64,000 nucleotides of DNA, taken from positions 31,062,001 through 31,126,000 of the forward strand of contig NC_043003.1 in the NCBI RefSeq assembly GCF_006345805.1. Reading direction: 5' to 3'. The notes below the pieces were generated by a model. The model was not told the DNA's origin. It ran no database searches and saw only the letters and a program-made list of their open reading frames with translations. The position numbers and the translations under genes are program-made. Origin of the DNA: Octopus sinensis (lineage: Eukaryota). How positions within the stretch are numbered: position 1 is the first letter of the stretch; every line of letters begins with the position of its first letter. Shown piece by piece: positions 28,648-59,805 of the stretch.

Positions 28648-28653
28648 ATAATA

Positions 28654-30300
28654 TCGGTGCCACCTCACTCTCCCGTGAACATCTAGATTCCTTCCTCTCT
28701 TTCGTTCAATCTTTCCATCCAGCCCTCCACTTCACTTCCACTATCTCCAACACCTCTGTCTCCTTCCTCGACATTTCGGTTAGCATTCTTCACTCCACTC
28801 TTACCACCTCCATTCACTACAAACACACAGACTCACACTCTTACCTCAACTTCTCTTCCTCCCACCCAGAACACACCAAGCTTTCCATCCCCTATTCCCA
28901 ATTCCTCCGTCTACGTAGGCTCTGTAGTGACGACCATGACTTTGAGACTCAGTCTCAACGTATGGCTCACCACTTCATCCTACGTGGATACCCCCTCACC
29001 ACTATCCACACCGCCCTTGCCAGAGCACGTTCCGTGGACCGTGTATCTGCTCTCTCTCCCCGAACCCGCCCTGTAGTCTCCCGCCTCCATTTTCCCCTCA
29101 CTTACCACCCCACGACCCTATCTCTCCAACGCACCATTCTTAGAGCTTTCCGTCATCTCCAGTCCGACCCGTCCACTTCACACCTCTTCCCTAACCGACC
29201 CCTCCCCTCTTTCAAACGAGCCCATAACCTTCGAGACCTTTTGGTCCATAGCTCCTTCCCTGACCCTACCTCCCAACCTGGCTCGTTCCCCTGCTCCCTC
29301 CCACGTTGCCGCACTTGCCCTTACCTCTCCAACACCACCCTCCTCACTGGCACCTATCATCGACCCTTTCGCATCATCAACTCCTTCACCTGCACCTCCA
29401 GCATTATTATCTATTGCGTCTCTTGCTCTCTCTGCCATTCCCTGTACATCGGACAAACGGGACGCCGCTTGGCTGACCGGTTCGCGGAACACCTTCGTGA
29501 CATCCACCTTGCGAACGACAACCGGTCTCACGCCATTTCCGCTCCACCGGTCACTCCTTGCAACACCTGTCTGTGTCAGTTTGTCCTACACAGAGGCCAT
29601 CCGGATTCCCGTTTGCGCCGTGAACAGGAATTAATCTTCTCTCTTCGCTCTTATATGCCATTTGGTCTCAACTACTCCCCCCCCTCCTCATCTAATCCCC
29701 CTCTCCCCCTCCTCATCTAACTCCCCCCGACCCCTACTTCCTTCAGCCTTCATCCTTTCACCCCTACTCCTCTTCCCTTCTTCCTTTTCTCCCTCCCTCC
29801 TTCTTCCCTCTTCCCCTTCCCTCTGCCTCTCACTCCCCTTCCTCTCCCCTCTCTCCTCTATCCTCCCTTCCTCTCCCCCTCCTCTTCTCCTCTCCTTCCT
29901 CTCTCCCTCCCCTCCCCTCACTAATCTCTCTCATACACACACACACACTCTTCTCATACACACACACCACACACTCTTATGTTTGAGCGGGGTCATTCAA
30001 CCCAATATCTCCCCTTTTCGCTCTTGCGTCTCATGTTTGATCTTTGACTTCTGGCCGAAATCAGATCGCCATGTTGATTCGCTAGCTTTTGTACGCATAT
30101 TTTTTTTCTCCTTCTTTCTGTGTTTTTTTTCTCTGTGTATCTTTCTGTTGAAGAGCGTAGGCTCGAAACGTTAAAGACTTGTTTCATTTATATTTCCTGA
30201 GCGCCATACTAATACAATTGTTTGTTTGTATTCCACCTGCCTTCATCTTTTGTTTATTTCCGTAAACCTGCCTTCGTCTTTTGTCTATTTTCATAAAGCT
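28654..30300 (+). mobile_element. 5'-truncated Penelope-like element (RT C-terminus plus GIY-YIG endonuclease, 3' pLTR) inserted in (TA)n
   Basis: [54 protein letters not shown], CxxPRCxTC and IIYCVSCSLCHSLYIGQTGRRLADRFAEH. TA tracts on both sides. Confidence 0.92.
30140..30177 (+). ncRNA. Minimal hammerhead-like motif in the PLE pLTR (variant core CUGUUGA)
   Basis: UCUUU-CUGUUGA-A-GAGC(GUAG)GCUC-GAA-ACGU-U-AAAGA. Stems I and II and a palindromic ACGU stem III are present, but core A6 is replaced by U. Confidence 0.55.
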
Positions 30301-31019: not shown

Positions 31020-33885
31020 CAAAGTAAAGTTGTAAGGTACCGCACAAGTGGAAATATATTAAAAGAAGGTTTGAAAATGCAATTTTAAGATGTTTATTCA
31101 CTTGATCAGTTTCACATTTTTAGAAAAAGATTGTCAAAAGTAAAATGTAAAGCTTTGTATAAGCTTTGTTGTGTTAAGAACTAGTTGTCACAGAAGTATT
31201 AAAATTCATATATTCTTCGATAATAATAAGAAAATGTTAAAAATAGTTTACAAGAAAGTATTAAGAAAATATTCAACAAAAAGTATTACACACACGTGAA
31301 CAAACACATATACACACACATGTGCACACACAACACCCTGACAATTCCCAATCACACACATACACACACACATCACCAGGATAATTATAACAACATAAAC
31401 ATACTTAGAGAGAGACACACATACGCACTCATTTATACACACTCACGTACACACACACTCGCGTACACACACACTCACGTACACACACATAACATCCCCA
31501 TCAATATAAAACACACCAATATACACACACGCACCCACAGACGCTATCATACACACACGCGAACAAACACATACACACATGCGCACACACAACACCCTAA
31601 CAAATGTTAATCACTTACATAAACACACACAATCGTACACACATATACACACACCATCCTACCAAATATAAAAGACACACAGACCCATTTACACACGCCA
31701 TAATAAACTCTGGGACCAAATAAAAACGCCCCCACACACAGAGACACAAACACATATACACATACACATAGAGACGTGCACAGAGACACGCACACATTCA
31801 CACTATTCTGACCTCTGAGGCCAGTCTCAAAAACCACTGAACCATGACAGACTAGCTCAGAAACAAAAAAAATCCTTTTAATTCCACATTGCTCTTTCTT
31901 CCTCCGACCCTAACCAATCTCCCACACTGTCCCTTAAAATAACAGACAATCCTTAGCTACACACGAGACAGAAAAAATGTCAGAAAGATAGGTTGGTTCT
32001 TCTCGAATTCTTTGTAAACTCTTAAATATATCTCCTTCTGTGTATATATATACTACTAAACAAACATGATTTTATTGAATTCTTAATACTTTTTCTGTGT
32101 ATGTATATATATACTATCAAACAAACATGATTTTTATTGAACTCTGCCTGTCTCTGTCTCTCTTGTTTACTCTTGTAGGTGCGAGGTCGTTGTGAAGTCT
32201 TGGTGCAGAAGAAGGAGGAGGAGAAGGAGGAGAAGAGAAGAAGAAGAAGAAGAAGAAGAAGAAGAAGAAGAAGAAGAAGAAGAAGAAGAAGAAGAGAAGA
32301 AGAAGAAGAGAGAAGAATGCGGGGAGTGAAGTGCATGATAGTAGTATGTAAATGGTTAAGTGCCCTGAAAGTGACCGTTGTGGATGGTAGTAGTGATTGA
32401 ATTATTGGGATATTCCTTTTGAATGTCTTGTTTATAAAATTTGCGTAGGTGTTATTCTAAACAGTAATAGTGGTAAAGTTAGGAAGAAGGTGGCGGAGAG
32501 GGAGAAGATGAAGAAGAAGAAGAAGGAGAAAGAGAAGGGAGAATAAGAAGGAATGTAGGCAGTATGATAGTAGTAGGGTGTTAAATGGTCAAGTAACTTA
32601 AAAGTGGGTCGTTATGGATTATAGCAGTGATTGGGACTGTTTTTTAATGAATTCTTGGAAATCTCTTGAGTGTATCATTTTAAATATTTGCGTGTGTATT
32701 TGTGTTATTCTAAGATATCCCAAATTAAAGAAGGATTTACAACCAAAAGCTCTCTCATACATCTTCACGCACAACCCTCTTAACAATGAAGCCATCGACA
32801 CCATCCTTCAAAACATTCCCCTCCTAAAAAAGGACCACAGAATGAACTTAATCCTCCAAACACACACCACCATAAAAAGCAAGAGACAACCCAAATCTAT
32901 GAAAAGTCTCCTAACACAAGCCCGAATACTCTCAACAACAACACAGAAGCCGTCAGTAAAAAGTGCAGAAGACCCAACTGTGGGATATGCGTCAATTTAA
33001 TTGATGGATCAGAGTTCTCCTTCAAACAGGAATAACGTTTCACAGTGAAAAGCAGCTTCACATGTGCCTCGGAAAACCTAATATACGCACTAGCCTGCTC
33101 TGGGTATCAAGAGCAATACATAGGCCAAACAAAAAACAGTCTACGTAAAAGAATGGCTCTTCACAGATTCCATTCAGCCAACACATCGACATTTGCAACA
33201 ATAAAAAAATCCAAGCTTCAGAATTTTCCCCTCTACCAATTCAGGGACGATACAACCTGTAGCCACGAATTAGTAAAGAGACTCTCTTTATTACAAAATA
33301 CAGACCCCTTTTGAACGCGTCTACAACACACGACATGTCCACCACGGCCTTAGAATAACACAAACACACACGCAAATATTAAAAATGATGCACTCAAGAG
33401 ATTTCCATGAATTCATTAAAAACAGTCCCAATCACTGCTATAATCCATAACGACTCACTTTTAAGTCACTTGACCATTTGACACCCTACTACTATCATAC
33501 TGCCTACATTCCTTCTTATTCTCTCTTCTCTTTCTCCTTCTTTTTCTTCGTCTTCTTCTTCTTCGCAACCTCCTTCCTAACTTTACCACTATTACTGTTT
33601 AGAGTAACACATACGCAAATTTTATAAATAAAACATTCAAAAGAGATATCTCAGTAATTCGATCACTGCTACCATCTACAACGGGTCACTTTCAGGGCAC
33701 TTGACAATTTAACATACTACTATCATGGCACTCCCGCATTCTTCTTCTTCTTCTTCTTCTTCTTCTTCTCTTCTTCTTCTTCTTCTTCTTCTTCTTCTTC
33801 TTCTTCTTCCGTACCAAGACTTCACAACAACCTCGAACCCACAAGAGTAAACAAGAGAGATAGAGACAGGAGGCAGAAACAAGGA
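31020..33885. mobile_element. Penelope-like element with an inverted 3' arm (left arm minus, GIY-YIG fragment and 3' region plus)
   Basis: 32713-33312 encodes KSSFTCASENLIYALACSGYQEQYIGQTKNSLRKRM. About 32140-32712 is the reverse complement of about 33350-33880. Confidence 0.8.
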
Positions 33886-34739: not shown

Positions 34740-34796
34740 AAACTGATTGACTAACTAACCAACGGACTAACTAAATAACCAACCAACCAACCAACC

Positions 34797-34863
<67 letters not shown>

Positions 34864-35236
34864 CAACTATCTAACCAATTAACTGACTGACTAACTAACC
34901 AACGGACTAACTAACCAAGTAACTGATTGACTAACTAACCAACGGACTAACTAACCAATTAACTGACTGACTAACTAACCAATTAATTGACTGACTAACT
35001 AACTAACCAACTAACTCACAGACCGACCGACTAACTAATCAACTTACTAACAAACTAGGAACTAATCATCTAACTAACCAATTGACTAATTAACCAATTC
35101 ACTGACTGATTGGCAAAATAACTAACTAGCTCTACGCCTATCTAAGTGATTAACTAACTAGCAAGATAGCTAGCTAACACAATAACAAACTATACTCACT
35201 AACCAACCAACCAACCAGCCAATCAACCAACCAACC

Positions 35237-35330
<94 letters not shown>

Positions 35331-35880
35331 TATCTATCTACCTAACTAACTAACTACTAACTAACTAACTAACCAACTATCTAACCAATTAACTGACTGA
35401 CTAACTAACCAACGGACTAACTAACCAAGTAACTGATTGACTAACTAACCAACGGACTAACTAACCAATTAACTGACTGACTAACTAACCATTAATTGAC
35501 TGACTAACTAACTAACCAACTAACTCACAGACCGACCGACTAACTAATCAACTTACTAACAAACTAGAACTATCATCTAACTAACCAATTGACTAATTAA
35601 CCAATTCACTGACTGATTGGCAAAATAACTAACTAGCTCTACGCCTATCTAAGTGATTAACTAACTAGCAAGATAGCTAGCTAACACAATAACAAACTAT
35701 ACTCACTAACCAACCAACCAACCAACCAACCAACCAACCAACCAACTAACTAACTAACTAACTAACTACTAACTAACTAACTAACTAACTACTAACTAAC
35801 TAACTACTAACTAACTAACTACTAACTAACTAACTAACTACTAACTAACTAACTAACTACTAACTAACTAACTAACTGAT
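34740..35880. repeat. Compound (AACT)n/(AACC)n/(ATCT)n satellite containing a block duplication of about 510 bp
   Basis: The variant string AACCAACTATCTAACCAATTAACTGACTG starts at both 34861 and 35371. Confidence 0.9.
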
Positions 35881-48617: not shown

Positions 48618-48922
48618 ATATATATATATATATATATATTGTCATAAAAAAAGGGGTAGAATTAATTAATTGTTAATAAATTCGACCAAGCAGTATTCGG
48701 TATGTAAAGACCATTTACGGTATATTTGAAGTATTAATTTATAAAAATATGGTAAAGTAAAAAAATTCACTTTACCACACACCGAACTTTTCAGAAATAG
48801 CAGCCAAAAATTTGGCTATTTCTTCAACTGCAAATAAAAGTCTCCAGACAATGCATACTCAGAAAATAACTCACATAGGTATAAGGGAAAAAAACAATGA
48901 AAGATCACATCCATATACGATA

Positions 48923-48984
48923 CCCGAGGACAGTCTGTTTCTGGATTTGTGGGTAAAACGCCACTTTTCCTTCATCAGCTCAGA
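48923..48984 (-). ncRNA. Type I hammerhead ribozyme (array 1, left arm)
   Basis: Exact reverse complement of 49602-49663. Confidence 0.8.
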
Positions 48985-49601
48985 GATTTCTTCTGATTTA
49001 GATTTGAAAATACTAAGAATCAAACATACCCGTCCGATATCTGTAACATCGGACAAACCATGCCAGACACCCAGTACTAGCGAATCCAAAAATACGAATG
49101 AGATCTATTGTTCTCCCTGTCCACCCACGTGAGTCATAGAGCATTACATTTCTACAGAGGTAAAAACTGCAGTTCAAATTCTTGGAGAGAAAGCATTATA
49201 TTGTCATCAAAAAAGGGTGGCTGCTATTTCTGAAAAGTTCGGTGTGTGGTAAAGTGAATTTTTTTACTTTACCATATTTTTATAAATTAATACTTCAAAT
49301 ATACCGTAAATGGTCTTTACATACCGAATACTGCTTGGTCGAATTTATTAACAATTAATTAATTCTACCCCTTTTTTGATGACAATATAATGCTTTCTCT
49401 CCAAGAATTTGAACTGCAGTTTTTACCTCTGTAGAAATGTAATGCTCTATGACTCACGTGGGTGGACAGGGAGAACAATAGATCTCATTCGTATTCTTGG
49501 ATTCGCTAGTACTGGGTGTCTGGCATGGTTTGTCCGATGTTACAGATATCGGACGGGTATGTTTGATTCTTAGTATTTTCAAATCTAAATCAGAAGAAAT
49601 C

Positions 49602-49663
49602 TCTGAGCTGATGAAGGAAAAGTGGCGTTTTACCCACAAATCCAGAAACAGACTGTCCTCGGG
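49602..49663 (+). ncRNA. Type I hammerhead ribozyme (array 1, right arm), predicted cut after GUC at 49657
   Basis: UCUGAG-CUGAUGA-A-GGA..GUGG/CCAC..UCC-A-GAA-ACAG(A)CUGU-C-CUCGGG. Stem I is UCUGAG/CUCGGG and stem III is near-palindromic. Confidence 0.8.
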
Positions 49664-50859
49664 TATCGTATATGGATGTGATTTTTTTCCCTTATACCTA
49701 TATATATATATATATATAGTGTTTCACGGATTAAGAGGAAACATTTATATCACATTGTTACTGTTATTTCTGAATGTCGTTCCAATGTTAATAACGTGAT
49801 TTTCTTCTTCCTCTCTTGTCTCTAAATCAAACGATATAATTGAATAGAACCCCTCTTTCTCTTTCTCTGTCTCTCTATCTATCTTTTTCCCTCTTTGTTT
49901 TTTTTCCTTTCTCCAAAAAAAACATTAAAAAATTCTCCTCATCTAAACAAAGCATAGAACGTCCATAAAAGAACAAACAAAAAACAAAGCAAAAAATAAA
50001 ATGTCACATTCACCAAGGATACGCTGTTTTTATGATTTTGATTTTAATTCTTATCGTGAAGAGTTCGTTTAAACGAACGAAAGCGCTTATAATAAAGCAT
50101 TATATAATAAAGAATTATCCAAAATTCTGACTGCTTCCTTTTCTCTCGATACACACACACGCACAAACACACACAGACACTCACACACACAGACACACGC
50201 ATGCACGCACGCATGTATATGCATGAATGCATGTATGTGTGTATGTTTTTGTATGAACATGATTTTTGTATGAACATGATTTTAACATGATTAAAAGCAC
50301 AATGAGCGAAGAAAAATATCTCGTCTGTGTCAATGGCATTAATTTAGATAAATATATCAAGAGACATTGAATACTGCATGTAACAATTTCTTAATCAAGT
50401 TCTTAATTGAAAAAGAAAGCAACAACATATACTTACCTTGTTCAAAGCATGAAAATTGATTGTAGGAGATTAATTCTTAATTTCACAAAATTATTTCCTT
50501 TTTCTTCGAGAATTGTTAAAAATTACCAGTCGATTTTCGTTATATTTTCATCTAAGAAGATTTCGAGTGTACTACAATTTTTACGAATGGCATTAAGTGC
50601 AACATCCTTATTTTATGGTGGAAACGGTTATGTCATTCTTGAAATTTATTTTAGAAATGAGATATGAAGGAAGAAATATAAGCATTTTGGGCAATCTGAA
50701 GAATGCACAAACATTTAAAAAAGAAGAGTCAAGTTACTGCCCGCTCTCACTTACTGGGAAAAGATCTCCAAATCATTACATTCCTCGTCATAATTGTCCA
50801 TCTATCCATCCATTTTTACCGCCTACTATTTTACCGCCTACTAAAAAAAGGCTGAGTAG

Positions 50860-51237
50860 ACGCAGGAGTGGCTGTGTGGTAAGTAGCTTGCTTACCAACC
50901 ACATGGTTCCGGGTTCAGTCTCACTGCGTGGCACCTTGGGCAAGTGTCTTCTACTATAGCCTCGGGCTAACCAAAGCCTTGTGAGTGGATTTGATAGACG
51001 GAAACTGAAAGAAGCCCGTCGTATATATGTATATGTATATGTATAAATGTGTGTTTGTGTGTTTGTCTTTGTCCCCCCAACATCAGAGTTTTATGTCTCC
51101 GCAACTTAGCGGTTCGGCAAAAACCCTCCGATAGGATAAGTACTAGGCTTGCAAAGAATAAGTCCTGGGCTCGGTTTGCTCGACTAAAGGCGGTGTTCTA
51201 GCATGGCCGCAGTGAAATGACTGAAACAAGTAAAAGA

Positions 51238-51245
<8 letters not shown>
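50860..51245 (+). mobile_element. Full-length family B SINE
   Basis: GCAGGAGTGGCTGTGTGGTAAGTAGC head through the GACTGAAACAAGTAAAAGAGTAAAAGAG tail. Confidence 0.9.
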
Positions 51246-51296
<51 letters not shown>

Positions 51297-51630
51297 TTTT
51301 AGATCCCAGTTCATGGATATATTACGGAAACAAAAACAGGTCAATTAGCAAAAAAAAAGTGCAAAGATAAATAATAGGAAATCTAAAGTAAAATCATTTA
51401 AAAATTAATCAGTCAAACGTGGAGAGATACTGAGAAGAATCAATAGATAAGCTACCAGATTTATGATCTTACAAAACTTATCAGTTTGTGAACTATGTAA
51501 ATAAACAAGAATTTTGTTGGCCTCCAACGGATCATATTTTACTAAATTATACTAGTGTTATCATAAAGATAAAGCATTTGACATTTGTTTTTTTTTTATA
51601 TGATGATTAATTAATTGATGCATCTTGTTT

Positions 51631-51703
<73 letters not shown>

Positions 51704-51706
<3 letters not shown>

Positions 51707-54700
51707 AATTAAGGACTGAACACGAAAAGTGGACAGTCAACATGCTAGATATAGACGTCAAATCGCCATTCACCACAAAAGATTATGTTCTCAGATCAAA
51801 CTCAACACAAAACCATAGCAATAAACAAGTGAAAAATATACGAAATAAAATAATTACCCATGTACTAAATTAGTTTCAGCTGTTATTTTCCGCAAGGAAA
51901 ACTGCAGCCATCATCAGCATGGTCCGTTATAAATGTAATTTGCTGGACTAGATGCAAACACGATACCGAAATATCGCGTGCATGGAGTTCAGCCTATTAC
52001 ATTTGAATATACCTTTCAAATGCCTTTACTTTGGCGCGTTGAAACCCGAGAAAACCAGCCTGCAGCTAATAATTAGCAGCAGTTAATTTATCGGTTAGAG
52101 AACATATTTATTTATATAAAAGTAATTAAGGGTAGAAATTGATATTTATCAATTAAGACCAGTGGTCTAGCATATTAAAAAAGAATCCGAAGATTAAAAT
52201 ATTTATATATACCAATTAAGGACTGAACACGAAAAGTGGACAGTCAACATGCTAGATATAGACGTCAAATCGCCATTCACCACAAAAGATTATGTTCTCA
52301 GATCAAACTCAACACAAAACCATAGCAATAAACAAGTGAAAAATATACGAAATAAAATAATTACCCATGTACTAAATTAGTTTCAGCTGTTATTTTCCGC
52401 AGGAAAAACTGCAGCCATCATCAGAATGGTCCGTTATAAATGTAATTTGCTGGACTAGATGCAAACACGATACCGAAATATCGCGTGCATGGAGTTCAGC
52501 CTATTACATTTGAATATACCTTTCAAATGCCTTTACTTTGGCGCGTTGAAACCCGAGAAAACCAGCCTGCAGCTAATAATTAGCAACAGTTAAGAATGGT
52601 TGAGAACATAATGCTATGGTTTTGTGTTGAGTTTGATCTGAGAACATAATCTTTTGTGGTGAATGGCGATTTGACGTCTATATCTAGCATGTTGACTGTC
52701 CACTTTTCGTGTTCAGTCCTTAATTGGTATATATAAATATTTTAATCTTCGGATTCTTTTTTAATATGCTAGACCACTGGTCTTAATTGATAAATATCAA
52801 TTTCTACCCTTAATTAATTTTATATAAATAAATATGTTCTCTAACCGATAAATTAACTGCTGCTAATTATTAGCTGCAGGCTGGTTTTCTCGGGTTTCAA
52901 CGCGCCAAAGTAAAGGCATTTGAAAGGTAATTCAAATGTAATAGGCTGAACTCCATGCACGCGATATTTCGGTATCGTGTTTGCATCTAGTCCAGCAAAT
53001 TACATTTATAACGGACCATGCTGATGATGGCTGCAGTTTTCCTTGCGGAAAATAACAGCTGAAACTAATTTAGTACATGGGTAATTATTTTATTTCGTAT
53101 ATTTTTCACTTGTTTTGCTATGGTTTTGTGTTGAGTTTGATCTGAGAACATAATCTTTTGTGGTGAATGGCGATTTGAAGTCTATATCTAGCATGTTGAC
53201 TGTCCACTTTTCGTGTTCAGTCCTTAATTGGTATATATAAATATTTTAATCTTCGGATTCTTTTTTAATATGCTAGACCACTGGTCTTAATGATAAATAT
53301 CAATTTCTACCCTTAATTACTTTTATATAAATAAATATGTTCTCTAACCGATAAATTAACTGCTGCTAATTATTAGCTGCAGGCTGGTTTTCTCGGGTTC
53401 AACGCGCCAAAGAAGTAAAGGCATTTGAAAGGTATATTCAATGTAATAGGCTGAACTCCATGCACGCGATATTTCGGTATCGTGTTTGCATCTAGTCAGC
53501 AATTACATTTATAACGGACCATGCTGATGATGGCTGCAGTTTTCCTTGCGGAAAATAACAGCTGAAACTAATTTAGTACATGGGTAATTATTTTATTTCG
53601 TATATTTTCACTGTTTATTGCTATGGTTTTGTGTTGAGTATGATCTGAGAACATAATCTTTTGTGGTGAATGGCGATTTGAAGTCTATATCTAGCATGTT
53701 GACTGTCCACTTTTCGTGTTCAGTCCTTAATTGGTATATATAAATATTTTAATCTTCGGATTCTTTTTTAATATGCTAGACCACTGGTCTTAATTGATAA
53801 ATATCAATTTCTACCCTAATTAATTATATAAATAAATATGTTCTCTAACCGAAATTAACTGCTGCTAATTATTAGCTGCAGGCTGGTTTTCTCGGGTTTC
53901 AACGCGCCAAAGTAAAGGCATTTGAAAGGTATATTCAAATGTAATAGGCTGAACTCCATGCACGCGATATTTCGGTATCGTGTTTGCATCTAGTCCAGCA
54001 AATTACATTTATAACGGACCATGCTGATGATGGCTGCAGTTTTCCTTGCGGAAAATAACAGCTGAAACTAATTTAGTACATGGGTAATTATTTTATTTCG
54101 TATATTTTTCACTTGTTTATTGCTATGGTTTTTGTTGAGTTTGATCTGAGAACATAATCTTTTGTGGTGAATGGCGATTTGACGTCTATATCTAGCATGT
54201 TGACTGTCCACTTTTCGTGTCAGTCCTTAATTGGTATATATAAATATTTTAATCTTCGGATTCTTTTTTAATATGCTAGACCACTGGTCTTAATTGATAA
54301 ATATCAATTTCTACCCTTAATTAATTTTATATAAATAAATATGTCTCTAACCGATAAATTAACTGCTGCTAATTATTAGCTGCAGGCTGGTTTTCTCGGG
54401 TTTCAACGCGCCAAAGTAAAGGCATTTGAAAGGTATATTCAAATGTAATAGGCTGAACTCCATGCACGCGATATTTCGGTATCGTGTTTGCATCTAGTCC
54501 AGCAAATTACATTTATAACGGACCATGCTGATGATGGCTGCAGTTTTCCTTGCGGAAAATAACAGCTGAAACTAATTTAGTACATGGGTAATTATTTTAT
54601 TTCGTATATTTTTCACTTGTTTATTGCTATGGTTTTGTGTTGAGTTTGATCTGAGAACATAATCTTTTGTGGTGAATGGCGATTTGACGTCTATATCTAG

Positions 54701-54825
54701 CATGTTGACTGTCCAATTTTCGTGTTCAGTCCTTAATTGGTATATATAAATATTTTAATCTTCGGATTCTTTTTTAATATGCTAGACCACTGGTCTTAAT
54801 TGATAAATATCAATTTCTACCCTTA

Positions 54826-54836
<11 letters not shown>
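51704..54836. repeat. Hammerhead array 2: 507-bp unit, about 1.8 copies followed by about 4.4 inverted copies, flanked by (TA)n
   Basis: ACCAATTAAGGACTGAACACG at 51704 and 52211. Orientation switches at about 52610. Copies are nearly identical. Confidence 0.95.
53016..53080 (+). ncRNA. Type I hammerhead ribozyme (array 2), predicted cut after GUA at 53075. Further copies: 53519-53583, 54019-54083, 54523-54587 (+); 51858-51922, 52365-52429 (-)
   Basis: CCAUG-CUGAUGA-U-GGCUG..UUUUCC(UUGC)GGAAAA..CAGCU-GAA-ACUAA(U)UUAGU-A-CAUGG. All three stems pair and the core is intact. Confidence 0.88.
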
Positions 54837-54866
<30 letters not shown>

Positions 54867-54871
<5 letters not shown>

Positions 54872-57800
54872 GGCTTAGTAAAATAAATTACTTTACCGCA
54901 TACTGAACTCATTAGAAATAGCAGCTAAAAAAACATTTATAAAACTATTTCTAATACTTAAAGAAAACCTCTCTCATATAGTGTTTGCTCAATTCAACTC
55001 ACGGAAGTATGGGGGGTAGAGACATTAAAAAATCAGATGCAAAGGTTATTTGAGAACGTACGTTTCAGATTAGTCAAAACTCGACATTTCTATCATCAGC
55101 TCAGAACTCCCTGGTTTGGATTTGAAAACACTGAAAGTGGGAGCATACTCCTTCGGCCTCCTATCGCTTTTGAAGATCCGCTCGTAACTAACAGTGCCAA
55201 CAAACCCAAATATGCAAGCGAAGAATTTCTGCTCTCCCCTTTCCACCAGCGTGGGTTAAAATCAGCAAACATTATGCTTTTTTCGGTAAAATCCGAGGCA
55301 TTTAAATAGAGAGAGATGAATTATAATTTCAACAATTGAGGGTAAAATTAATTAATTAATCAATTTCACCAAGTGTTCAGTATGCAAAGGGACCATTTAA
55401 GGCGAATTCAAATTATTACATTATATAAAAGGGCTTAGTAAAATAAATTACTTTACCGCATACTGAACTCATTAGAAATAGCAGCTAAAAAAACATTTAT
55501 AAAACTATTTCTAATACTTAAAGAAAACCTCTCTCATATAGTGTTTGCTCAATTCAACTCACGGAAGTATGGTGGGTAGAGACATTAAAAAATCAGATGC
55601 AAAGGTTATTTGAGAACGTACGTTTCAAGATTAGTCAAAACTCGACATTTCTATCATCAGCTCAGAACTCCCTGGTTTGGATTTGAAAACACTGAAAGTG
55701 GGAGCATACTTCTTCGGCCTCCTATCGCTTTTGAAGATCCGCTCGTAACTAACAGTGCCAACAAACCCAAATATGCAAGCGAAGAATTTCTGCTTCCCCT
55801 TTCCACCAGCGTGGGTTAAAATCAGCAAACACTATGCTTTTTTCGGAAAATCCGAGGCATTTAAATAGAGAGAGATGAATTATAATTTCAACAATTGAGG
55901 GTAAAATTAATTAATTAATCAATTTCACCAAGTGTTCAGTATGCAAAGGGACCATTTAAGGCGAATTCAAATTATTACATTATATAAAAGGGCTTAGTAA
56001 AATAAATTACTTTACCGCATACTGAACTCATTAGAAATAGCAGCTAAAAAAACATTTATAAAACTATTTAATACTTAAAGAAAACCTCTCTCATATAGTG
56101 TTTGCTCTATTCAACTCACGGAAGTATGGGGGGTAGAGACATTAAAAAATCAGATGCAAAGGTTATTTGAGAACGTACGTTTCAAGATTAGTCAAAACTC
56201 GACATTTCTATCATCAGCTCAGAACTCCCTGGTTTGGATTTGAAAACACTGAAAGTGGGAGCATACTCCTTCGGCCTCCTATCGCTTTTGAAGATCCGCT
56301 CGTAACTAACAGTGCCAACAAACCCAAATATGCAAGCGAAGAATTTCTGCTCTCCCCTTTCCACCAGCGTGGGTTAAAATCAGCAAACACTATGCTTTTT
56401 TCGGTAAAATCCGAGGCATTTAAATAGAGAGAGATGAATTATAATTTCAACAATTGAGGGTAAAATTAATTAATTAATCAATTTCACCAAGTGTTCAGTA
56501 TGCAAAGGGACCATTTAAGGCGAATTCAAATTATTACATTATATAAAAGGGCTTAGTAAAATAAATTAAATTACTTTACCGCATACTGAACTCATTAGAA
56601 ATAGCAGCTAAAAAAACATTTATAAAATTATTTCTAATACTTAAAGAAAACCTCTCTCATATAGTGTTTGCTCAATTCAACTCACGGAAGTATGGGGGGT
56701 AGAGACATTAAAAAATCAGATGCAAAGGTTATTTGAGAACGTACGTTTCAAGATTAGTCAAAACTCGACATTTCTATCATCAGCTCAGAACTCCCTGGTT
56801 TGGATTTGAAAACACTGAAAGTGGGAGATACTCCTTCGGCCTCCTATCGCTTTTGAAGATCCGCTCGTAACTAACAGTGCCAACAAACCCAAATATGCAA
56901 GCGAAGAATTCTGCTCTCCCCTTTCCACCAGCGTGGGTTAAAATCAGCAAACACTATGCTTTTTTCGGTAAAATCCGAGGCATTTAAATAGAGAGAGATG
57001 AATTATAATTTCAACAATTGAGGGTAAAATTAATTAATTAATCAATTTCACCAAGTGTTCAGTATGCAAAGGGACCATTTAAGGCGAATTCAAATTATTA
57101 CATTATATAAAAGGGCTTAGTAAAATAAATTACTTTACCGCATACTGAACTCATTAGAAATAGCAGCTAAAAAAACATTTATAAAACTATTTCTAATACT
57201 TAAAGAAAACCTCTCTCATATAGTGTTTGCTCAATTCAACTCACGGAAGTATGGGGGGTAGAGACATTAAAAAATCAGAGGCAAAGGTTATTTGAGAACG
57301 TACGTTTCAAGATTAGTCAAAACTCGACATTTCTATCATCAGCTCAGAACTCCCTGGTTTGGATTTGAAAACACTGAAAGTGGGAGCATACTCCTTCGGC
57401 CTCCTATCGCTTTTGAAGATCCGCTCGTAACTAACAGTGCCAACTGTTGGGTTTGTTGGCACTGTTAGTTACGAGCGGATCTTCAAAAGCGATAGGAGGC
57501 CGAAGGAGTATGCTCCCACTTTCAGTGTTTTCAAATCCAAACCAGGGAGTTCTGAGCTGATGATAGAAATGTCGAGTTTTGACTAATCTTGAAACGTACG
57601 TTCTCAAATAACCTTTGCATCTGATTTTTTAATGTCTCTACCCCCCATACTTCCGTGAGTTGAATTGAGCAAACACTATATGAGAGAGGTTTTCTTTAAG
57701 TATTAGAAATAGTTTTATAAATGTTTTTTTAGCTGCTATTTCTAATGAGTTCAGTATGCGGTAAAGTAATTTATTTTACTAAGCCCTTTTATATAATGTA

Positions 57801-59020
57801 ATAATTTGAATTCGCCTTAAATGGTCCCTTTGCATACTGAACACTTGGTGAAATTGATTAATAATTAATTTTACCCTCAATTGTTGAAATTATAATTCAT
57901 CTCTCTCTATTTAATGCCTCGGATTTTACCGAAAAAAGCATAGTGTTTGCTGATTTTAACCCACGCTGGTGGAAAGGGGAGAGCAGAAATTCTTCGCTTG
58001 CATATTTGGGTTTGTTGGCACTGTTAGTTACGAGCGGATCTTCAAAAGCGATAGGAGGCCGAAGGAGTATGCTCCCACTTTCAGTGTTTTCAAATCCAAA
58101 CCAGGGAGTTCTGAGCTGATGATAGAAATGTCGAGTTTTGGACTAATCTTGAAACGTACGTTCTCAAATAACCTTTGCATCTGATTTTTTAATGTCTCTA
58201 CCCCCCATACTTCCGTGAGTTGAATTGAGCAAACACTATATGAGAGAGGTTTTCTTTAAGTATTAGAAATAGTTTTATAAATATTTTTTTAGCTGCTATT
58301 TCTAATGAGTTCAGTATGCGGTAAAGTAATTTAATTTATTTTACTAAGCCCTTTTATATAATGTAATAATTTGAATTCGCCTAAATGGTCCTTTGCATAC
58401 TGAACACTTGGTGAAATTGATTAATTAATTAATTTTACCCTCACCCTCAATTGTTGAAATTATAATTCATCTCTCTCTATTTAAATGCCTCGGATTTTAC
58501 CGAAAAAAGCATAGTGTTTGCTGATTTTAACCCACGCTGGTGGAAAGGGGAGAGCAGAAATTCTTCGCTTGCATATTTGGGTTTGTTGGCACTGTTAGTT
58601 ACGAGCGGATCTTCAAAAGCGATAGGAGGCCGAAGGAGTATGCTCCCACTTTCAGTGTTTTCAAATCCAAACCAGGGAGTTCTGATCTGATGATAGAAAT
58701 GTCGAGTTTTGACTAATCTTGAAACGTACGTTCTCAAATAACCTTTGCATCTGATTTTTTAATGTCTCTACCCCCCATACTTCCGTGAGTTGAATTGGGC
58801 AAACACTATATGAGAGAGGTTTTCTTTAAGTATTAGAAATAGTTTTATAAATATTTTTTTAGCTGCTATTTCTAATGAGTTCAGTATGCGGTAAAGTAAT
58901 TTATTTTACTAAGCCCTTTTATATAATGTAATAATTTGAATTCGCCTTAAATGGTCCTTTGCATACTGAACACTTGGTGAAATTGATTAATTAATTAATT
59001 TTACCCTCAATTGTTGAAAT
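54867..59020. repeat. Hammerhead array 3: 560-bp unit, about 4.6 copies followed by about 2.8 inverted copies (fold-back at about 57449), flanked by (TA)n
   Basis: GGGCTTAGTAAAATAAATTAC at 54871, 55431 and onward. The junction is CAGTGCCAAC-tgttgggttt-GTTGGCACTG. Confidence 0.95.
57553..57606 (+). ncRNA. Type I hammerhead ribozyme (array 3), predicted cut after GUU at 57602. Further copies: 58112-58166, 58683-58736 (+); 55051-55103, 55611-55664, 56168-56221, 56734-56787, 57293-57346 (-)
   Basis: UGAG-CUGAUGA-U-AGA..GUC(GAGUUUU)GAC..UCU-U-GAA-ACGUACGU-U-CUCA. Stem III is the perfect palindrome ACGUACGU. Confidence 0.8.
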
Positions 59021-59094
59021 ATATATATATATATTATATATATATATATATATATAATATATATATATAAATAACATTCTTTTATTCTTTTATT

Positions 59095-59301
59095 CTTTTA
59101 TTGGTTCCAGTCATTTAACTTCGGCCATGTTAGTACACCGCCTTTAGTCGAACAAATTGACTCCAGGACTTATTCTTTGTAAGCATAGTACTTGTTCTAT
59201 CGGTCTCGTTTGTCGAATTGCTAAGTTAGGGGGGCGAAAATACACCAACATCGGTTGTCAAGCGATGTAGGGGCACAAATACAGATACACAGACATATAC
59301 A

Positions 59302-59337
<36 letters not shown>

Positions 59338-59546
59338 TATATATTATATATATATATATATATATATGCGATGGGCTTCCTTCAGTTTCCGGCTACCAAA
59401 TTCACTCACAAGGCTTTGGTCGGCTCCAGGCTATAGTAGAAGACACCTGCGTAAGGTGTCACGCAGTGGGACTGAACTCGGAACCATGTGCTTGGGAAGC
59501 AAGCTTCTTATCACTCAGCCATGCCTTCGCCTATGTGTATATATAT

Positions 59547-59579
<33 letters not shown>

Positions 59580-59743
59580 GCGATGGGCTTCCTTCAGTTT
59601 CCGGCTACCAAATTCACTCACAAGGCTTTGGTCGGCTCCAGGCTATAGTAGAAGACACCTGCGTAAGGTGTCACGCAGTGGGACTGAACTCGGAACCATG
59701 TGCTTGGGAAGCAAGCTTCTTATCACTCAGCCATGCCTTCGCC

Positions 59744-59747
<4 letters not shown>
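59095..59747 (-). mobile_element. Family B SINE whose 5' half is tandemly duplicated (212-bp period)
   Basis: GCGATGGGCTTCC...CCTTCGCCTATG is identical at 59368 and 59580. Confidence 0.9.

Positions 59748-59805
<58 letters not shown>

What the first reader, a model, noticed from the sequence alone, without database searches (positions are those of the whole stretch)
49239..57842. A second conserved, covarying RNA stem plus a shared motif links the three unit families
Seen on the ribozyme-sense strand: array 1 UUCGGUGUGU/ACAUACCGAA (about 49239/49320), array 3 GUUCAGUAUGC/GCAUACUGAAC, and array 2 UCUAGCAUGUUGA/UUAAUAUGCUAGA (52683/52761-52773). Each stem encloses about 65-72 nt and is followed by CU(U)GGU..AAUU..(C/U)UACCC. 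Arrays 1 and 3 differ by compensatory changes (A-U versus G-C, C-G versus U-A). The imperfections are G-U wobbles only on the ribozyme strand. Inference: an undescribed cis element under selection as RNA, such as an RT-binding, ligation or promoter-linked module.
Basis: partly seen in the sequence, partly recalled or inferred. Interest (0 to 1): 0.72.

Follow-up and report, generated by a model that had tools for sequence, protein, structure and literature searches.

The report
Twin-hairpin start signal in Penelope-type retrozymes
The stem and motif are parts of one conserved, predicted RNA fold shared by many self-cutting-RNA repeats of this animal genome, and its two look-alike hairpins each lie 10-17 letters before one of the two fixed points where inserted copies end, so it likely tells a borrowed telomerase-related copying enzyme where to start.

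Summary
The stems are real at the stated coordinates. The arrays are non-coding hammerhead repeats (non-LTR retrozymes) inserted Penelope-style into (TA)n. The module occurs in at least 8 related families and thousands of copies. In 37 copies S1 stays paired beyond a tree-aware null (0/2000), with G-U 42 versus A-C 9 cells; no single pair is significant. Insertion ends cluster at two sites, 10-17 nt after Ha (A) and after S2 (B). 11 of 12 two-armed insertions picked by ribozyme alone have one end of each. This is the Penelope 'tail', here about 90 nt, which marks two reverse-transcription starts in vitro (PMC11167929). Best reading: an RNA docking and initiation signal for a Penelope-type RT acting in trans. 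The module was not found as the own end of any autonomous element in 94 loci; binding and expression are untested. The scan noted two-site ends in this genome and twin hairpins in other genomes before.

The parts
48639..49699 (.). Family F1 two-armed insertion: minus arm 48639-49217 ending at site B, plus arm 49218-~49699 ending at a non-canonical point about 35 nt after the hammerhead; unit 560 nt
49238..49369 (+). F1 module: S1 5' arm 49238-49247, Ha 49248-49273, S1 3' arm 49319-49328, S2 49337-49369
48655..48786 (-). F1 module, terminal copy; 16-nt tail then (TA)n (site B at ~48639)
49603..49662 (+). F1 type I hammerhead motif (second copy 48924-48983, minus strand)
   Evidence: cleavage untested
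51705..54834 (.). Family F2 two-armed array: minus arm ~51705-52609 ending at site A, plus arm 52610-~54834 ending at site B; unit 503 nt; 6 hammerheads, 6 full modules
52683..52808 (+). F2 module: S1 5' arm 52683-52693, Ha 52694-52718, S1 3' arm 52763-52773, S2 52779-52808
51705..51749 (-). F2 site A end: S1 5' arm and Ha present, copy stops about 9-13 nt after Ha and joins (TA)n
53016..53080 (+). F2 type I hammerhead motif (first plus-strand copy)
54834..54867 (.). (TA)17 tract shared by the F2 site B end and the F3 site A end
54868..59019 (.). Family F3 two-armed array: minus arm 54868-57444 ending at site A, plus arm 57447-59019 ending at site B; unit ~560 nt; 8 hammerheads, 7 full modules
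57553..57606 (+). F3 type I hammerhead motif (first plus-strand copy)
57749..57875 (+). F3 module: S1 5' arm 57749-57759, Ha 57760-57785, S1 3' arm 57832-57842, S2 57847-57875
58976..59019 (+). F3 terminal S2 plus 13-nt tail joining (TA)n (site B)

Best explanation
The stem and motif are two parts of one conserved, predicted RNA fold near the 3' end of non-coding hammerhead repeats, and the fold likely docks a Penelope-type reverse transcriptase-endonuclease supplied in trans and likely sets the two points where copying starts. Shown: S1 (9-11 bp) can close a junction of hairpins Ha, Hb and Hc, and a 4-8 nt linker leads to hairpin S2. Ha and S2 are both typically closed by G-C pairs and followed by C and an AU-rich tract. 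Genomic copies end 10-17 nt after Ha (site A) or after S2 (site B) and join (TA)n, and two-armed insertions nearly always have one end of each. Inferred: the enzyme cuts both strands of a (TA)n target; one DNA end primes at A and the other at B; both cDNAs run 5'-ward, through several units when the template is multimeric or circular, and join head-to-head at variable points; S1 holds the two start units in one fold. The roughly 90 nt between A and B is the Penelope 'tail'.
For: Module patterns match 2143, 6609, 2275, 2436 and 356 times in G000 against 0, 3, 1, 48 and 3 for reversed controls (the patterns overlap). At least 8 families with different hammerheads carry it. S1 over 37 copies x 9 pairs: 265 WC, 42 G-U, 9 A-C, 17 other; canonical fraction 0.922 versus 0.763 +/- 0.056 in a tree-aware null, 0/2000. 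WC-to-GU events about 23 (6.5 internal), GU-to-WC about 14, WC-to-AC 7 (all at tips); background shows no bias toward G-U-making changes (80 versus 93). RNAalifold on sequence-only alignments recovers S1, Ha and S2; pair counts exceed shuffles and slid controls. S2's second pair is G-C in 31 and A-U in 6 copies; Ha is followed by C in 32 of 35 copies where it was called. Ends in 30 loci picked by the hammerhead alone: 18 B, 13 A, 1 artefact of 32; 11 of 12 independent two-armed insertions are A+B, p = 0.003. Five families: 138 of 156 ends at A or B (10 of them tentative); 42 A+B, 2 B+B, 0 A+A, 12 with another end, of 56 two-armed insertions. F3 genome-wide, forward strand only: 792 A and 1017 B junctions. 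PMC11167929 (main text read to early methods): the tail lies between two RT start sites in a stem-loop, the enzyme cuts and extends both strands and is predicted to be a dimer.
Against: No single S1 pair is significant in my R-scape-like test (best E 0.18 over 12 pairs), and the number of extra WC pair types is not significant (114/2000); only about 5-6 double changes are inferred. The 40 copies were picked by eye from 89 clusters, and 3 were dropped because the register was unclear. The module is not the own 3' end of any autonomous PLE in 94 RT/EN loci; the 11 with a hit look like separate insertions. Arms of one insertion are closer to each other than to every other insertion in only 10 of 18 cases (closer than the median in 18 of 18), so one template molecule is not shown. 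Most loci were selected through S2, which works against A+A. Junctions are blurred by microhomology with (TA)n. S1 is not in the predicted fold of about 7 of 37, mostly older, copies. The window's own F1 insertion has one non-canonical end. No binding, probing or cleavage data.
Confidence: 0.68

Rival explanations
1. Only the local hairpin-plus-AU-tract units (or just AU-rich microhomology to the TA target) set the starts; S1 is a general folding or stability helix of the retrozyme RNA or circle with no role in RT docking.
For: Whole monomers fold into long rod-like structures. Both sites lie in AU/TA-rich tracts able to anneal to (TA)n. Per-pair covariation is not significant.
Against: The module is the only part alignable between F1 and F3. 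Units hold other AU-rich tracts that are rarely used as ends. S1 encloses site A and abuts S2 in every family.
Confidence: 0.17
2. The element acts as DNA: a cruciform or palindrome recognised by the GIY-YIG endonuclease or by host repair, as reported for the Drosophila virilis Penelope tail.
For: PMC11167929 recounts that the D. virilis tail was needed for endonuclease recognition of plasmid DNA. S2 is an AT-rich near-palindrome with many ATT words, the PAc cut motif.
Against: G-U versus A-C asymmetry (42 versus 9 cells; internal-branch events about 15 versus 0) points to the sense single strand; duplex DNA would be symmetric and cDNA would favour the opposite. New insertions land in (TA)n, not in the module.
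Confidence: 0.07
3. The palindromes are by-products of template switching or hairpin-templated repair at an RT start region and are not selected.
For: S2 varies from 30 to 58 nt with internal repeats; small local inversions are common at these insertions.
Against: S1 pairs over 62-88 nt and keeps long-lived G-U pairs, which copying would turn into perfect complements; closing pairs and the following C are fixed while loops vary.
Confidence: 0.04
4. The cloverleaf is a tRNA mimic, a promoter element or a ligation aid for circularisation.
For: A stem closing three hairpins is followed directly by CCA in the F2-, F8- and F11-type families (alignment).
Against: F1/F3-type families lack the CCA; there is no T-loop consensus; ARAGORN finds nothing; Rfam has no hit in the arrays; the ribozyme cut is about 190-250 nt from S2; ends do not map to the CCA.
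Confidence: 0.04

Closest known systems
Metazoan non-LTR retrozymes (PMC7229834, passages read; bioRxiv 10.64898/2026.07.22.740005, parts 1 and 3 of 5 read)
   Same: Tandem, low-GC, non-coding units each with a type I hammerhead; proposed non-autonomous derivatives of PLE pLTRs.
   Different: Units here are 478-566 nt (150-450 bp given as typical). The passages read describe no second conserved RNA module, no two-site ends and no two-armed insertions. Cleavage and circles are untested here.
PLE 'tail' and internal RT initiation in Poseidon of Anolis (PAc; PMC11167929, parts 1-2 of 4 read); tail and inverted pLTR (PMC8557442, PMC3846280, passages)
   Same: Two start sites separated by the tail, tail at one end only, inverted head-to-head arms, AT-rich targets, initiation in a stem-loop.
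   Different: Tail about 80-95 nt rather than 30-40; start tracts AU-rich rather than AC-rich; element protein-less; a multi-helix fold conserved across families; in PAc either strand used either site in vitro, whereas here the two ends are nearly always one of each.
Telomerase RNA template boundary element (PMC11206666, passages)
   Same: A helix 5' of a short single-stranded tract, bound by a related RT, which would fix where that RT works.
   Different: The TBE stops synthesis, whereas here the RT must read through the hairpin; no pseudoknot or CR4/5 seen; analogy only, no homology tested.

Membership tests
Non-LTR retrozyme | Type I hammerhead core (CUGANGA, GAAA, UH; helices I-III) in each unit | tested here: met
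   Own descriptor: 16 motifs in the window with short palindromic helix III; Rfam gave no hammerhead hit at E <= 1
Non-LTR retrozyme | Tandem units of a few hundred nt, low GC, no protein | tested here: met
   Units 503-566 nt, GC 33-36%, no ORF >= 150 aa inside the arrays
Non-LTR retrozyme | Self-cleavage and expression as linear and circular RNA | not testable with these tools
   No run on record as RNA; contigs only
PLE-mobilised non-autonomous element | Inverted 5'-truncated arm, optional tail at one end, microsatellite target | tested here: met
   fixed 3' ends A and B in (TA)n, variable 5' junctions
PLE-mobilised non-autonomous element | Sequence shared with the pLTR of an autonomous PLE in the same genome | tested here: inconclusive
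   Not found as the own end in 94 RT/GIY-YIG loci of about 8 families; the sampling of PLE families is incomplete
Autonomous PLE | RT plus GIY-YIG ORF | tested here: not met
   None in the arrays; intact ones exist elsewhere in G000
Covarying structured RNA (R-scape standard) | At least one base pair significant after phylogenetic correction | tested here: not met
   Own G-test/APC implementation, 37 copies, best E = 0.18; R-scape itself not available; power low
Covarying structured RNA (helix level) | Pairing kept beyond a tree-aware null, with strand-specific wobble | tested here: met
tRNA or tRNA-derived element | tRNA cloverleaf with T-loop consensus | tested here: not met
   ARAGORN 0 genes; no Rfam hit

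The most novel reading that the evidence does not exclude
Ha and S2 are a duplicated docking signal (G-C-closed hairpin, C, AU-rich spacer) for the two protomers of a dimeric Penelope RT. S1 holds both in register on one RNA, often a circle, so that both cut DNA strands are primed at once. That would explain the PLE tail, the inverted pLTR and multi-unit arms in one step, and would be a retroelement counterpart of telomerase template positioning.
Probability: 0.3. Interest if true: 0.82.

Novelty: new variant of a known kind. Interest (0 to 1): 0.6.

Why it matters
How Penelope-like RTs, the sister group of telomerase, pick their RNA and why their insertions carry a tail at one end only is open (PMC8557442 and PMC11167929 say so). 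This module gives a short, natural, multi-family substrate with defined helices and two mapped start sites, so the question can be tested by mutation. It also gives a concrete cis signal for how animal retrozymes are mobilised, in a genome with thousands of such insertions.

Tried and rejected
Rfam scan: 102 matches, all microsatellite-type noise, none in the arrays. ARAGORN: none. Sigma-70 scan not relevant and at chance level. Per-pair covariation: not significant. RNAalifold on a mix of two clades misaligned the 5' arm and gave a compromise structure; repeated per clade. The G-U minus A-C statistic under the column-alphabet null is uninformative by construction (968/2000). A-to-I editing as the only source of G-U: rejected, since C-to-U and reversions also occur and background A>G is not in excess. 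Autonomous partner: GIY-YIG and protein searches and 94 loci read; L141 looked like a pLTR but is a separate retrozyme insertion beyond that element's own end. F8 and F11 end mapping was swamped by (TA)n in the reference and was redone. Expression: no RNA holder listed; contigs laid cannot show strand, ends or circles. Supplements of PMC11167929 held as text had no hits; its Fig. S2C on RNA folding could not be seen and may bear on novelty; bioRxiv supplements are closed. Literature searches for a described structure at the PLE or retrozyme tail found only the PAc stem-loop.
Full report
Observation. All three stems are present on the hammerhead-sense strand at 49238-49328, 52683-52773 and 57749-57842, each followed by the GGU...UACCC motif. 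The window holds 15 full modules and 16 hammerhead motifs. One stem alone is only mildly unusual (12-17 of 100 shuffled units give >= 10 bp). Arrays 1 and 3 are about 75% identical over the module and not elsewhere, so the link is homology.

Context. The window is G000:C7:31062001-31126000 in a 2.72-Gb animal assembly; my calls do not establish the organism (earlier AI notes call it an octopus). The arrays are three separate insertions of 503-566 nt non-coding units, each with a type I hammerhead core and a short palindromic helix III (Rfam misses them). Each insertion has two head-to-head arms bounded by (TA)n. This fits non-LTR retrozymes (PMC7229834, passages), proposed to be non-autonomous PLE derivatives (bioRxiv 10.64898/2026.07.22.740005, parts 1 and 3 read).

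Anatomy. Folding 37 natural copies and RNAalifold on sequence-only alignments of two clades give one architecture. S2 is closed G-C, G-C, U-A in 30 copies, G-C, A-U, U-A in 6 and G-C, G-C, U-U in 1; its length varies from 30 to 58 nt. Ha varies greatly in sequence but is typically G-C-closed and is followed by C in 32 of 35 copies where it was called; the sequence after Ha and after S2 is alike (C, U, then AU-rich; for S2 the C was part of the search pattern). Patterns for the module match hundreds to thousands of times against 0-48 for reversed controls. At least 8 families with different hammerheads carry it, linked by a chain of similarity.

Selection on RNA pairing. From 239 module copies in 89 clusters I picked 40 by eye that kept the upstream part, dropped 3 whose register was unclear and re-anchored 2 on MAFFT columns. 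Over 9 pairs in 37 copies: 265 WC, 42 G-U, 9 A-C, 17 other (cells are not independent). My R-scape-like test found no significant pair (best E 0.18 over 12). A helix-level null that keeps the tree, each column's alphabet and its number of changes gave 0.763 +/- 0.056 canonical pairs against 0.922 observed (0/2000), while extra WC pair types were not significant (114/2000). About 23 WC-to-GU and 14 GU-to-WC events (about 15 on internal branches) contrast with 7 WC-to-AC events, all at tips; background changes are not biased toward G-U. S1 pairing probability is higher on the sense strand in 21 copies and on the antisense in 8 (medians 0.95 and 0.66). The pair-count tool agrees on 15 copies (96% paired; slid controls 37-46%), though its shuffle ignores relatedness.

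Where insertions end. In the first 30 of 1495 genomic matches to the F3 hammerhead, 32 sense-3' ends were seen: 18 at 6-17 nt after S2 (site B; three from a diverged subfamily classed by eye), 13 at 76-82 nt before the S2 end (site A, inside the S1 loop, about 10 nt after Ha) and 1 alignment artefact. 5' junctions were scattered. Of 12 independent two-armed insertions (one local duplicate counted once) 11 were A+B and 1 B+B (p = 0.003). Across five families, 138 of 156 ends were at A or B (10 tentative) and two-armed insertions were 42 A+B, 2 B+B, 0 A+A and 12 with another end (selection through S2 works against A+A, and identical flanks were merged). For F3 alone the forward strand has 792 A and 1017 B junctions (reverse counts overlap and were not used). 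In the window F2 and F3 are A+B; F1 is B plus a non-canonical end.

Mechanism. In the anole PLE, reverse transcription starts at two internal sites in a stem-loop, the stretch between them is the genomic tail, both target strands are cut and extended, and the protein is predicted to dimerise (PMC11167929, parts 1-2 read). The tail is known to be present at one end only (PMC8557442, PMC3846280, passages). I therefore infer that A and B are RT start sites and that Ha and S2, each 10-17 nt 5' of a start, are matching docking hairpins, with S1 folding them into one unit. Shown: sequences, conservation, end positions and their pairing. Inferred: RNA folding in vivo, protein binding, dimer use, one template or two. 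Arms of one insertion are closer than the median other copy in 18 of 18 cases but closer than every other insertion in only 10 of 18, which fits one source locus without proving one molecule.

Partner. G000 holds intact RT-GIY-YIG ORFs of 772-781 aa. In 94 loci around such proteins, from about 8 families, a profile of the module hit 11 loci, in mixed orientation and not shared by sibling copies, so they read as separate insertions.

Rivals. A general folding helix (0.17), a DNA-level endonuclease signal (0.07), a by-product of template switching (0.04) and a tRNA mimic, promoter or ligation aid (0.04) are weighed in their own entries.

Novelty. Retrozymes, PLE tails and initiation in a stem-loop are in print. 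A conserved multi-helix fold with twin hairpins fixed to the two starts, and the one-of-each rule for the two arms, did not appear in my searches; a supplementary folding figure of PMC11167929 could not be seen. Earlier AI notes of this scan reported two-site, two-armed ends in this genome and twin hairpins at PLE starts in other genomes; I read them after and do not count them as support. Verdict: new variant of a known kind, interest 0.6.

Noticed in passing
L008, L011, L021, L027, L029: Long ORFs of a second, LINE-like retroelement (family name not tested) lie next to F1 units; L021 and L027 share the same junction 168-169 nt after S2, suggesting site-specific insertion into the retrozyme.
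   Followed up: no
L144:6468-6651 (minus): A divergent module (S2 closed GGA/UCC) abuts the 5' start of a full-length RT-EN element with no (TA)n between; either a template jump or a nested insertion.
   Followed up: partly
L141:4300-5480; L317; L331: Several autonomous PLE families carry hammerhead-like motifs with U3/A8 in place of C3/G8 near their ends; one has a long 3' region with repeated CCAAT and TGACGTC words and a TATA-like box.
   Followed up: no
L119, L125, L166: Other hammerhead elements without S1 also end in a short GGA/UCC hairpin, C and a 12-18 nt AU tail, the same anatomy as S2.
   Followed up: partly
window 28650-29700 and 32147-33870: Two broken PLE RT/endonuclease relics; the second has inverted arms.
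   Followed up: partly
window 57759 and 57832: Within F3 variants in public contigs the paired positions change together (C-G to U-A) in all four runs laid.
   Followed up: partly
window 50857-51253, 59085-59792, 34750-35877: Abundant SINE-like repeats, a 212-bp tandem of one of them, and a 1.1-kb (ACTA)n array.
   Followed up: no
F2-, F8- and F11-type modules: S1 is followed directly by CCA and hairpin Hc often carries a C(UUCG)G loop in F2-type copies; absent in F1/F3-type.
   Followed up: partly
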